Positions 6,822 through 64,000 of a stretch of 64,000 nt of DNA are shown here, piece by piece; position 1 is the first letter of the stretch, and each line of letters begins with the position of its first letter. The notes beneath the pieces are model-generated. The model ran no database searches. It had not been told where the DNA came from and saw nothing but the letters and a program-made list of their open reading frames with translations. A program made the translations under genes and the position numbers. Origin of the DNA: Podarcis liolepis (lineage: Eukaryota); NCBI GenBank assembly GCA_965112155.1, contig OZ218101.1. The stretch is one strand, 5' to 3'.

Positions 6822-7790
6822 ATGGGAAATGCAGAGAGCCAAAATGTAGAACATCAATTTTATGGAGAGAAACATGCCAGCTTGGGAAGAAAACATACAT
6901 CACGTTCCCTTCGCCTTTCGAACAAAGCATCTCGCCGGACCAGACATGCTTCCTCAGGAAAAATTATTCACAGGAATTCAGAAGTAAGCACACGATCTAG
7001 CAGTACTCCTAGTATTCCTCAGTCATTAGCAGAGAATGGCCTGGAGCCCTTTACCCAAGAAGCCAACTTGGAGGATTTTGGAAGCCCAATCTGGGTAGAC
7101 AGGATGGATATGGGCTTAAGGCCAGTTTCTTACCACACTGATTCTTCGGTTACTCCCAGCGTGGATAGCAGCACAGTCCTCATGGCAGCCTCAGTACAGA
7201 GTATGCCAAATTCAGAAAGTGGTAGACTTTATGGAGATGAATCAACATACCTGGCTGAAGGGGGTAGCAGGCAACATTCGTATTCAACAAATGGGACCAA
7301 TTTCTTGGAGCCTATAAGTTTCAAGAAGAAACGTTCAAAATCTGCGGATATATGGCGTGAGGACAGTTTGGAATTTTCACTCTCTGATCTCAGTCAAGAA
7401 CATTTGACAAGCAACGAAGAAATCCTAGGCTCTACTGAGGAGAAGGAAAGTGAGGAGACTCGAGGGAGAGAGGCGGTCAGCAGTCGCCAGCCATTGGTCA
7501 CCTGCCAGCGCGCCAATTCCATGAGTGACTTGTATACTCCAAAAAACTCAAATGCTGCAATCAATGGGGGTCCACGAAATACGCTAGGAGGGTACTGTCG
7601 GAATTTAATGTCTCATATTCCAGATATGGAGAACCACAAAATGTCACCAGCCACAACAGAGAATGTTCCTTCTTACAGTAATTACAACACGCTCCCCTGC
7701 AGGAAATCTCATTGCCTCTCGGAAGGAATCACTCACCCAAAAATGAGCCATAGCAACAGTATGCATGGCAGACGAGCAAAAACAACTCAG
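6822..7790 (+). CDS. TIAM1: TIAM1 coding exon 1 (N-terminal regulatory region; exon starts at 6811)
   Basis: MGNAESQNVEHQFYGEKHASLGRKHTSRSLRLS...KKKRSKSADIWREDSLEFSLSDLSQEHLTSNEEILGS...YNTLPCRKSHCLSEG is the TIAM1 N-terminus. Acceptor ttctttcag|6811, Kozak accATGG, donor CAG|gtaaaa at 7790; 969 nt, phase 0. Confidence 0.97.
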
Positions 7791-57729: not shown

Positions 57730-57833
57730 GACGCTTGTTCTGCAGTGATCAGGACAGCTGTGCTGAGACAACTCCAGAAGAGGCAGAAGTGCATGTCTTG
57801 GAGTCGTCCAGTGAGGGTGATAAAACTGGCAAG
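57730..57833 (+). CDS. TIAM1: TIAM1 coding exon 13 (acidic linker before DH; gene continues beyond the window)
   Basis: (G)RLFCSDQDSCAETTPEEAEVHVLESSSEGDKTGK. taacag| and AAG|gtgtga; 104 nt brings the spliced CDS to 3003 nt, phase 0. Confidence 0.9.
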
Positions 57834-59483
57834 GTGTGAAACTTTCATTTTCACATTGTAAATAGCAGAATCACTGCAGGCTAAAAGCTGGCATGCTGAC
57901 TTCACAGCTGTGTGCGATTAGAGCGTCTCTTCCAGGATAATGTTTACCTTGGGGTGTTTTTTTAAAAGTGTTTACATGATATGGAATGAACCCAATTAGA
58001 GCCTTGATTATAGCTCGACACCACCTGCTGTACCCAAATGCTCCCCCTTTGCCCATCATGGGTGGGTGTGGTGTGGTAATAATGATCTTGAATATAAAAC
58101 ACTACAGCCCCTTTGCTTTGGTTGTGAGTCTCCCTGAATGCCACTTGCCACATTTTCACATGCAGCCCTGCCTGTGCTTATAATTCTTAATATATGATAT
58201 GCTCAAATATATTTTTGCTTGTTGCAGAGTTTGCATGGTGGAATCCTAAATGGAAAGAAATGTTAGGTGTTCTACCTTTTAATTGTAGTGGAACTCAACA
58301 ATTAAATTAAACTGACCAAACAACTGGATTATTAATTGGGATACCCATCCCAATTGGGAGCTTATTAACATATGAGTTTATTTTTATGGGTGCCCTGTGA
58401 AGACGAGGTTGTTGTTTTTTTGTAACTGTGTGTGCAAAAATACAATTCAGCGTTAAAAGGACAAGCATTTCAAAAGTTGTTTGATGAGTGCTTTCATTTT
58501 ACACTCCACTGAAAGCGTGTAACCCCTTCAGAATTTTTCTGATAGTTAGTAACAGATAAGGTAAGTAGGTCTGAGCTTCCTTTTGTGTTCCTGTATTGCA
58601 ATGGTTTCCTCATAATAGTTTACTAATTACAACTTCTGCCTGAAGACAGCTTCACATATTACAAATTTATTAAATGAATGCCACTTTTTGTGAATGAAAT
58701 TCCACGTTTGTAATACATGCAGGTTGTCACATGTGACAAGCACTTTAATGTTTATTAACACAAGGCAGGAAGCTGAATTTGGTGGTATATCATATATTTG
58801 GTGGGGTGTACACGTAAAAAAATAAATGTGTGTGTAATTATCATACGTGACTATATTTATGTGGGTTACATGAAATATCCAATCTCAAAATTGTATCCAG
58901 GTAAGAAAGTAATTTTGTGGGAGGTGGCTCTTGGTTACGAATTAATCCACAAATGGTGTTGTTAGGATATCATAGTGGAAAGGAAGGAAAAACCTCATGG
59001 CCTCAGATTTCCTGCCCCTTTGTCTAACTAGCCTATAGCCCTTCCTTTGATAGCTAGACAGTGGAAGTCTGCTAGCAGGAGGTATTCCCAAGCTTGAAGC
59101 AGCTGCAAAATTGCATCAGCTACTAGAGCTCAGATGCAGAGCTCATATGACAAGCAGGAGGCTGTTGAAGTTTGCACTCTGGTTTCCTGCAGGACCTATT
59201 ATAGTAAGTGATGCTGGGTGGGTTTTCTGGCTTAGAAAAGAAGGGAAGTTCTGACCTCTAGAGGTATGTAGATCTTAAAATGTTAAGTATGGTCTTTGCT
59301 GGATTAATAAGGTGTTTAGAAAGGGTATGTCTCATTTTTAAAAGTGAGTAGTGTGGGAACTGGTTCATAGTTTTAAAATATTCTTATGCTGGTGCTTGTG
59401 CTATTATCTAGATTTTTACATTTTGCAAACTGCAGTGGTCATGTCCTGAGATTTTCTTCTTTTCAGCTGCAGATGTCTTAGAT

Positions 59484-61848: not shown

Positions 61849-61935
61849 ATTGGCTTTCAAAGATTTCTAATTGGCAACCTGCTTTATTTCTGGAAATGTT
61901 AATATTCTTGTGCAGCACAGGTTGTAGCCAATCAG
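61849..61935 (+). promoter_or_regulatory. Cluster of CCAAT (NF-Y type) boxes; candidate internal promoter
   Basis: ATTGG at 61849 and 61870, AGCCAATCAG at 61926-61935, and another CAGATTGGCT at about 61262. Motif evidence only. Confidence 0.35.
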
Positions 61936-62343
61936 CTCTCCGGAGCCTCAGGCAATAGACATTTATTTTCCACCGGGGATTTTGCTTCTTCCTTTCAAGT
62001 TTAAGCTGTCCTTGCTTGAGTACTTTTTCGAAAGCTCCTTGAAAGGGAGAATTAAGGACTGACTCTGCAGCTTAAATCAGAGAATTTCATTCTAGTTGAC
62101 TCTATTGAGCGTGTAAAGTCTGAAGAGGAATACAAGAGGAATCTGGTAGCTGCCCATTCTCATTAACATGCAAGAAGGTATCCAGCAGTCAGGAATACTA
62201 TGAATTGGAATGAGAATATGTATTTTTTTTTTACCCATAAAGTAGGTCAAGAAATCTCGATGTGGGGTGTGTCTACCCTCCGTCCATTTTTTATTGCTGA
62301 AAATGGCGAATAATGGTATTGTCAGAGTAACATCGTTTTGGTG

Positions 62344-62430
62344 ATGTCAGTTTATTGGAGAGTTAAACGTAAGCCCAGAAATGAAGGCACCGGGAGAGCT
62401 TCTGATTCTCTTCGGCATATGCTTCATATG
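62344..62430 (+). CDS. TIAM1: Candidate alternative first coding exon of a short TIAM1 isoform (MSVYWRVKRKPRNEGTGRASDSLRHMLHM)
   Basis: 29 open codons from ATG 62344 end in a phase-0 donor ATG|gtgaga, matching the phase left by exon 13. Non-repetitive, CpG-containing context downstream of clustered CCAAT boxes. Confidence 0.45.
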
Positions 62431-64000
62431 GTGAGATCTACCATATAGCGGAAATAATGAGAGAATGTTATGTTGTTATGCTGCATTTTAAAGGAATAAT
62501 TGGCTGATGCTATCAAAGCAAATTAGGTGATTTTCCAAGTCTTGCCTTGAACATGCAATAATCTGGGTCACCAGAATATCACACAAGGTGAGATGGGGGT
62601 GAAATTTGTTATCCAGCTGAAAGAACATTAAATAAGCAGTGAAATTTGAGATTCAGCTGTTTTATAGTTGGATGAGGTAGAAATCTTGGGGAGCAAAATG
62701 TTATTGTATTGTGGAAAGGGGGGGAGCATTTTTAATGTGGCTTTTATTGGTCCTTGGGTGCATCCAATTCTGCAAGCCTAAAAATGCAGATTATGGCCAA
62801 CCGAAGTGAATGACAATTTGGATCTCCAGCAATTACTACTTCTCTTTAAAATATGTAATAAATGCTGATCTTTAATACACATATTTTTCAAGAAAAGATC
62901 CATATTAGTGGATGAGATAATTATTGCTTTTACTATCAGTTAACTTTAAAGATATGTAATTAAGCAGGTCTCAGATGAAGTAGATTCTTGCCTATGAAAG
63001 CTCATGCTTATAGCAGCTAAGAATTCCATGTACAGTTTTTCGGCTGTATTTTGTATCTTTGGCATGTTAAAGAATCACGTGTTGTTCCTTCTGGATATAA
63101 TAGCAGGCAATTTGTCTAAAGATAGAAAAGTTTGTGTAAAAACTTCTGAAAATGGTTATGAACCTGTATTTGTCAGGATATTGACATGTCCTGTCAATAA
63201 GTCCATGATTGTAGTTCTCTTTAAAACTTTTATTTGTGCTTTGATGTCTTGTGCGTCAAACTGTTCCTCTGTGTGGGGCTTGGCTTTATATGTGACCACT
63301 GCAATTTGCACAACCATGGTGGTCCTTTTTCTAAGCAATCAAAATTGTGTTAGGCATGTCCATATAACCCCTGCTGGCTTATAAACCTTCTGGCCTCATA
63401 TGCCTTTTGTCATGTATTTAAATTCATTGGTCTTCATGGAAATCACACAAAAAACAAAACACAATGTTCAATAAGGCACTAGAGCTCTGTTTCTGGTTCA
63501 GCAAACCATAAACTTCACAATCAAATGCAAACTTGCAAGACTTGGTGGAATATGTGTGTATATTACATACACATTGTATGATAAACACATACAAACACAT
63601 ATTGCAATATGAAATAATATTTTCATAAGCTATATAACTTTTATTGGGTCAGTGTTGTGTGTGTGTTTTTAGCTTTCTGTTAGCACAAGCTAAATCCTGC
63701 AAAGATTCAGTAGGAGAGTCTCTAAAAATAACCTTGTGCTGAAGTCTCTGTTTCAGTTACTCAACCTTACCTATCCCACACACCAATAAACAAACTCAAC
63801 TGCTTACTGGTTTCCTACATACCTTTGATATGCTCTCCAAGGGGCATATGGTAGCTGGAGAGGTTCATTTGGTCCTCATGATCTGTGGATGATTAGGGTC
63901 CATTTCCCTCTTCTAAGAACTGGAACCAGAAACACCCCTTCCAGTTCAGATCTCCATATTCCTTGACCCCAACAAAAACGCTCCTGTTTACTCTCCTGGT

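What the first reader, a model, noticed from the sequence alone, without database searches (positions are those of the whole stretch)
61849..62436. Candidate internal promoter and alternative first exon for a short DH-PH-only TIAM1
Seen: three CCAAT boxes in about 85 bp (including AGCCAATCAG) in repeat-free sequence, then an ATG at 62344 opening 29 codons (MSVYWRVKRKPRNEGTGRASDSLRHMLHM) that end exactly at a phase-0 donor (ATG|GTGAGA). Exon 13 also ends in phase 0, so this exon would join the next exon in frame. Established: the TIAM1 N-terminus and PH-CC-Ex are autoinhibitory and targeting modules, and the paralogue TIAM2 has an internally initiated short form (TIAM2S). Inference: this could give a Rac GEF lacking myristoylation, PH-CC-Ex, RBD and PDZ, with a basic WRVKRKPR leader acting as an NLS or membrane anchor. 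I recall short human TIAM1 isoforms with a distinct N-terminus joining near this point, but I cannot verify that. Several upstream ATGs lie between the CCAAT cluster and 62344, so the start site is uncertain.
Basis: partly seen in the sequence, partly recalled or inferred. Interest (0 to 1): 0.7.

Follow-up and report, generated by a model that had tools for sequence, protein, structure and literature searches.

The report
Ancient short TIAM1 isoform's first exon
Inside an intron of a wall lizard's TIAM1 gene lies the conserved start exon of a short form of this Rac-activating protein, already catalogued from fish to mammals; the nearby CCAAT boxes are only its likely promoter, and its basic 29-residue front end is predicted, not shown, to act as a targeting tag.

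Summary
Real, but already known. The 29 codons at 62344-62430 and the phase-0 donor are as described, in the intron after TIAM1 coding exon 13. The same leader, joined to the same downstream exon, starts database isoforms in other lizards (Zootoca 29/29, Lacerta 28/29, Elgaria 22/29), turtles, birds, mammals (mouse NP_001139359.1), paddlefish and teleosts. A profile built without lizards picks this frame at E 1e-13 among 7338 frames; the next scores 0.23. The predicted 628-aa, 71.7-kDa DH-PH protein matches the size of the human 71-kD short TIAM1 shown active in glioblastoma cells (PMC8551657). The promoter is unproven: CCAAT triples occur at three places in the window and eight upstream ATGs intervene. 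Four RNA runs of unknown tissue gave no reads on the exon, against 18 exon-13 junction reads. The leader's job is open; its charge is kept while the KRK core is not, which favours a membrane tag over an NLS. This scan found the exon before in another genome (e1-9077266).

The parts
62344..62430 (+). Coding part of the alternative first exon: 29-codon leader of short TIAM1 (basic/aromatic residues 1-13, variable middle, conserved tail 20-29)
   Evidence: (29/29 to Zootoca XP_060129603.1; 28/29 to Lacerta XP_033002801.1)
62431..62436 (+). Phase-0 splice donor GTGAGA; predicted to join acceptors beyond the window at extended positions 65407 (628 aa product) or 65482 (603 aa)
   Evidence: both acceptors are used from exon 13 in RNA reads; the join from this donor was not seen in reads
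61849..61932 (.). Three CCAAT motifs (61849 minus, 61870 minus, 61928 plus): likely but untested promoter element
   Evidence: triples are not rare in the window; no start-site data
61933..62343 (+). Probable 5' untranslated region, start unknown; seven ATGs at 62168-62313; the uORF from 62303 ends in a TGA that overlaps the main ATG; several possible acceptors (e.g. 62242, 62245)
57730..57833 (+). TIAM1 coding exon 13 (ends at residue 1001, phase 0), the upstream exon that the short form replaces
   Evidence: spliced reads
59147..59203 (+). A second alternative start in the same intron: 19-codon leader ending ATA|GTAAGT, used by Lacerta agilis X5/X6 and Podarcis raffonei X7 models

Best explanation
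This is the conserved coding first exon of the short TIAM1 isoform: an internal promoter, likely at or near the CCAAT cluster, would drive a transcript whose 29-codon leader is predicted to splice onto the exon before the DH domain, giving a 628-residue Rac1 exchange factor whose basic front end likely serves as a substitute targeting tag. The product keeps DH, the second PH domain and the C-terminal tail. It lacks the myristoylated N-terminus, PH-CC-Ex, the mapped nuclear signal at 684-710, RBD and PDZ. Shown: frame, phase, domain content, orthology of leader and junction. Inferred: transcription and splicing in this species, promoter position, release from N-terminal autoinhibition, and the role of the leader (membrane or anionic-surface tag about 0.4, helix docking about 0.25, NLS about 0.15, no specific role about 0.2).
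For: Same leader and junction in Zootoca, Lacerta and Elgaria RefSeq models and in turtles, birds, mammals, paddlefish and teleosts. 85 of 179 records with the junction or DH start in their first 400 residues score 15 bits or more with the leader profile; these are records, not species, and include the 18 seed rows. Independent profile test E 1.1e-13 against 0.23. Join at residue 1002; PDZ ends 928, DH 1048-1236, PH 1245-1414. Ape and gibbon records of 624 and 599 aa weigh 71.0 and 68.3 kDa, matching the 71 and 68 kD human isoforms, of which the longer was amplified, sequenced and shown to restore Lgl1 phosphorylation (PMC8551657). Engineered C580 and C682 fragments stay cytosolic and do not ruffle membranes, but a Src myristoyl-plus-basic tag on C580 restores both (PMC2139766); the natural leader sits at about the same place. 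Net charge of residues 1-13 is +4 or +5 in 8 of 8 leaders examined, fish to mammal.
Against: No read on the exon and no joint from 62430 in 4 runs (three bulk, one single-cell; 6-13% of each read; tissue unknown), against 13 canonical and 5 alternative-acceptor joints from exon 13. No Podarcis record with this leader was among those listed. CCAAT triples are common enough to be chance and seven ATGs follow the last box. The leader has no Gly2 for myristoylation, and a +5 patch alone is a weak membrane anchor (established knowledge); the Src tag that rescued C580 had a lipid as well. The tail of the leader is more conserved (0.73) than the basic part (0.53), which a charge tag alone does not explain.
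Confidence: 0.9

Rival explanations
1. The exon is real but internal: it is spliced from a non-coding first exon further upstream, or as a cassette into the long form, so the CCAAT cluster is not its promoter.
For: Pyrimidine-rich AG sites at 62242 and 62245 and others upstream; many upstream ATGs; the leader is internal in 1 clear (marmot, 1523 aa) and 1 weak (char, 754 aa) of 194 records over 700 aa.
Against: In nearly all leader-bearing records the protein starts at the leader's Met, and that Met is invariant in 70 of 70 aligned short isoforms; some models extend the frame upstream of the Met (oryx, parrots, ducks). Protein records cannot show whether the 5' UTR is spliced.
Confidence: 0.2
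2. The conserved tail of the leader extends the nearly invariant helix that follows it (residues 30-45), and together they dock on the DH domain or on a partner, giving the short form its own control switch, which the 75-nt alternative acceptor removes.
For: Mean column conservation: helix 0.97, DH 0.94, leader tail 0.73. The alternative acceptor deletes exactly the 25 residues holding the helix and leader-plus-skip records exist in primates, horse and birds. Both models predict the helix at pLDDT about 66 between disordered flanks. Tyr at position -6 in 69 of 85 records.
Against: The leader is at pLDDT about 35 in both models. The Tyr is Arg in all three lizard records and Phe in passerines. 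No solved structure covers residues 1-63 of TIAM1.
Confidence: 0.25
3. The leader is a nuclear localisation signal that replaces the one lost with the N-terminal half.
For: The functional bipartite signal at 684-710 (PMC5425402) is absent from the short form; the lizard, turtle and mammal leaders carry KRKPR.
Against: The KRK core is not kept in birds or fish while the net charge is.
Confidence: 0.15
4. The exon is a silent relic in this lizard and is no longer used.
For: No reads in 4 runs; Tyr and the last Leu are changed; a second lacertid start exon exists at 59147-59203.
Against: ATG, frame and donor are intact and the peptide is 29/29 and 28/29 identical to annotated isoforms of two other lacertid genera; gene coverage in the runs was only 18 exon-13 joints.
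Confidence: 0.04

Closest known systems
Zootoca vivipara TIAM1 isoform X5 (XP_060129603.1, 627 aa) and Lacerta agilis isoform X7 (XP_033002801.1, 628 aa), predicted RefSeq models
   Same: Leader 29/29 and 28/29 identical, same junction; the predicted protein is 619/628 identical to the Lacerta record.
   Different: Other genera; models, not experiments. No Podarcis record with this leader was listed.
Mouse Tiam1 isoform 2 (NP_001139359.1, 622 aa) and the human short isoforms NP_001340613.1 / NP_001340614.1 (71 and 68 kD; PMC8551657)
   Same: The mouse record has the orthologous leader and junction; primate records of matching mass have it too, with and without the 25-residue segment.
   Different: The lizard leader has Arg for the conserved Tyr and Met for the last Leu. 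The human sequences were not seen; their link rests on mass and on ape records.
TIAM2S / Tiam2s (PMC6394906)
   Same: Internal start before the DH domain in the paralogue, giving a DH-PH-only exchange factor.
   Different: Mouse Tiam2s starts in intron 15 contiguous with exon 16 and is translated from within exon 16; no counterpart of the TIAM1 leader was found in 60 kb around the equivalent TIAM2 exon of this genome (best E 0.59).
Engineered C580 / C682 Tiam1 and Src-tagged C580 (PMC2139766)
   Same: Nearly the same domain content.
   Different: The natural form has its own 29-residue leader without a lipid signal, and keeps the helix at residues 30-45, most of which C580 would lack (inferred from lengths).

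Membership tests
Short TIAM1 isoform (mouse isoform 2 type) | Own N-terminal leader orthologous to the mammalian one | tested here: met
   (non-squamate profile E 1.1e-13)
Short TIAM1 isoform (mouse isoform 2 type) | In-frame join at the exon that precedes the DH domain | tested here: met
   phase 0 on both sides; same join in three lizard records
Short TIAM1 isoform (mouse isoform 2 type) | DH and second PH kept; PH-CC-Ex, RBD and PDZ absent | tested here: met
Short TIAM1 isoform (mouse isoform 2 type) | Transcribed and spliced in this species | tested here: inconclusive
   0 reads on the exon in 4 runs of unknown tissue and low gene coverage
Short TIAM1 isoform (mouse isoform 2 type) | Own promoter and start site at the CCAAT cluster | not testable with these tools
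   no CAGE, ATAC or orthologous intron DNA available; motif statistics are weak
TIAM2S-type internal start | Translation from within a shared exon, without a separate coding first exon | tested here: not met
   here a separate 29-codon exon lies 2976 bp before the shared exon; TIAM2S layout
TIAM2S-type internal start | Homologous first exon in the TIAM2 intron | tested here: inconclusive
   no hit better than E 0.59 among 1407 + strand frames in 60 kb; a diverged or short exon would be missed
Vav-type Tyr-helix autoinhibition of DH (resemblance recalled, from no call) | Conserved Tyr in a helix that fills the GTPase site of DH | tested here: inconclusive
   Tyr in 69 of 85 records but Arg in lizards; leader unmodelled; alignment to autoinhibited Vav1 starts only at the DH domain

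The most novel reading that the evidence does not exclude
Since the common ancestor of bony vertebrates, TIAM1 has carried a second, compact control unit for its catalytic half: a basic leader for targeting plus a helix more conserved than the DH domain itself, which a 75-nt alternative acceptor switches in or out. The short form is then a separately regulated Rac activator, not a constitutively active fragment, and this one intron is a hot spot that has gained further start exons in lizards, turtles, frogs and lungfish.
Probability: 0.25. Interest if true: 0.55.

Novelty: already known. Interest (0 to 1): 0.25.

Why it matters
The isoform is catalogued and the human form has been shown to work in tumour cells, so the find is not new. 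What this adds is depth: leader and junction are kept from ray-finned fish to mammals, so the short form is a selected product and not transcriptional noise. TIAM1 is usually discussed as a 1591-residue protein controlled by its N-terminal half; knock-outs, antibodies or siRNAs aimed at that half would miss the short form. The job of the leader, and of the nearly invariant helix after it, is directly testable, and no paper on it turned up in eight searches.

Tried and rejected
A protein search with the 44-residue frame holding the leader found 1 candidate and no hit, although cluster members with the leader exist: the search sees representatives only. AlphaFold models of the lizard and mouse short forms were poor (mean pLDDT 49 and 48, PH domain unresolved) and cannot place the leader. 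The fold comparison aligned only DH and PH, not residues 1-59. The complex prediction of residues 1-50 against DH-PH was not available, so docking of the leader is untested. The protein atlas gave only hits under 0.9 for residues 1-50. The sigma-70 scan does not apply to a vertebrate. The leader has one match in the genome, itself. A recalled likeness of the leader's Tyr segment to the Vav inhibitory helix and to an ITIM was dropped as an explanation for the lizard, where the Tyr is Arg. TIAM2S as a homologue was rejected.

Full report
Setting. The first coding exon in the window (6822-7790) is 100% identical to Podarcis muralis TIAM1 records. A 1600-residue record (P0011) maps exon by exon over the window and the next 100 kb of the same contig: 13 coding exons lie in the window, the last at 57730-57833, ending at residue 1001 in phase 0. 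The next exon starts at extended position 65407, in phase 0, at residue 1002. PDZ ends at 928, DH spans 1048-1236 and the second PH 1245-1414. The finding lies in this intron.

Observation. The ATG, the 29 codons and the donor are as reported. The three CCAAT motifs are present, two on the minus strand. Taken alone these patterns are weak: 4 CCAAT triples within 85 bp at three places in the window, 14 in 164 kb, P about 0.016 per 600 bp; and 11 ATG-to-donor frames of 15 or more codons on the + strand. Eight ATGs lie between 61849 and the main ATG; three are in frame but closed by a stop at 62311-62313, and one uORF ends in a TGA overlapping the main ATG.

Conservation settles the exon. A search for proteins under 880 residues that hold residues 1002-1075 gave 177 hits among 187 candidates, of which 120 were listed. 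Many are 580-660 residue isoforms that begin with a leader like this one and join at the same residue: turtles, ducks, passerines, apes, rodents, paddlefish, zebrafish and many other teleosts. Cluster look-ups added the mouse record NP_001139359.1 and three lizard models: Zootoca 29/29, Lacerta 28/29, Elgaria 22/29 identical to the window's leader. Of 179 records with the junction or DH start in their first 400 residues, 85 score 15 bits or more with a leader profile; these are records, not species, include the 18 seed rows, and include four odd models (one read-through, one internal, one long extension, one shortened leader). As an independent test, a profile from the 15 non-squamate seeds scores the frame at 62314 at E 1.1e-13 and the next of 7338 frames at 0.23. 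No frog, lungfish or snake record with this leader was among those listed; frogs and lungfish show other starts at the same junction, so its loss or presence there is open.

Product. Leader plus residues 1002-1600 gives 628 residues, 71.7 kDa, 619/628 identical to Lacerta X7. A second acceptor 75 nt further on removes 25 residues and is used from exon 13 in 5 reads against 13 for the first acceptor. Primate records with the leader weigh 71.0 and 68.3 kDa with and without that segment. PMC8551657 (section 8 read whole, other passages) describes human NP_001340613.1 and NP_001340614.1 at 71 and 68 kD, amplifies and sequences the longer from glioblastoma cells, and shows that it supports Lgl1 phosphorylation; it expects the form to be constitutively active. 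The human sequences were not among my records, so the link is by mass and by ape orthologues. Its supplements were not read.

Expression here. Four raw RNA runs with the same species label (three bulk, one single-cell; 6-13% of each read) gave zero depth on the exon and no joint from 62430, while flanking exons had 1-6-fold depth in the bulk runs and essentially none in the single-cell run. Tissue is unknown and coverage low, so this neither shows nor excludes use.

How it likely works. Shown: frame, phase, domain loss, orthology. Inferred: an internal promoter produces a Rac1 exchange factor without the N-terminal targeting and inhibitory modules (their inhibitory role is established knowledge, cited in PMC8551657) and without the nuclear signal at 684-710 (PMC5425402, passages). 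Fragments of this domain content stay in the cytosol and do not ruffle membranes unless a Src myristoyl-plus-basic tag is added (PMC2139766, passages). The natural leader sits at about that place, is +4 or +5 over its first 13 residues in 8 of 8 leaders examined, and keeps the charge while losing the KRK core in birds and fish. I therefore favour an electrostatic targeting tag (about 0.4) over an NLS (about 0.15). Against this: no lipid signal, and the tail of the leader (0.73) is better conserved than the basic part (0.53); the helix after the junction (0.97) exceeds even DH (0.94). That supports the rival in which tail and helix form a docking element (about 0.25). Structure prediction could not decide. 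[quoted passage not shown]

Comparison. It is a member of the short TIAM1 isoform class by leader, junction and domains. It works like TIAM2S but is not its homologue: mouse Tiam2s starts next to exon 16 and is translated from within it (PMC6394906, passages), and the TIAM2 locus of this genome shows no leader match in 60 kb. The leader is rarely internal: 1 clear and 1 weak case among 194 records over 700 residues, plus one short-form model with a long upstream extension.

Novelty. Already known as database isoforms in lizards to mammals and as a studied human protein; this scan also noted the exon in another genome (e1-9077266). Eight literature searches (listings and abstract starts only, apart from the papers named; PMC12475976 passages added nothing) found no study of the leader, its promoter or its age; subscription journals are not covered. 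Interest 0.25.

Noticed in passing
window 59147-59203 (+): A second alternative start exon in the same intron: 19 codons ending ATA|GTAAGT, identical to the start of Lacerta agilis X5/X6 and 18/19 to Podarcis raffonei X7; joined to either acceptor; seen only in lacertid records among those held. A CCAAT triple lies at 58335-58353, about 800 bp upstream.
   Followed up: partly
beyond the window, extended 65407-65481 (L014:7907-7981): A 75-nt segment removed by an alternative acceptor encodes a helix that is more conserved (0.97) than the DH domain (0.94) in 70 short isoforms and is recognisable in the TIAM2 exon; both acceptors are used in lizard reads, and human isoform 4 lacks the segment.
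   Followed up: partly
window 62303-62344 (+): A 13-codon uORF in strong context ends in TGA overlapping the main ATG (GTGATG); turtle and many mammal leaders start Met-Met, which would give the same TGATG overlap.
   Followed up: no
window 62428-62430 (+): The leader's last codon is ATG in lacertids (Leu elsewhere), so it could serve as a later start; some turtle models begin with a single Met at this junction.
   Followed up: no
protein records P0125, P0129, P0142, P0150, P0285, P0289: Other short starts join at the same junction in frogs (4-5 residues), lungfish (46), paddlefish (3), alligator (26) and sea turtles (1): the intron seems to gain start exons repeatedly.
   Followed up: no
L014:6350-6680 and 7015-7350 (extended about 63850-64850): A transcribed interspersed repeat draws many 90-95% identical reads on both strands with loose ends; not TIAM1 signal.
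   Followed up: no
G000:C3:69345001-69405000 (L016, L018-L023): The TIAM2 paralogue; its intron before the equivalent exon holds several ATG-to-donor frames, one basic (69390999, 37 codons), none similar to the TIAM1 leader.
   Followed up: partly
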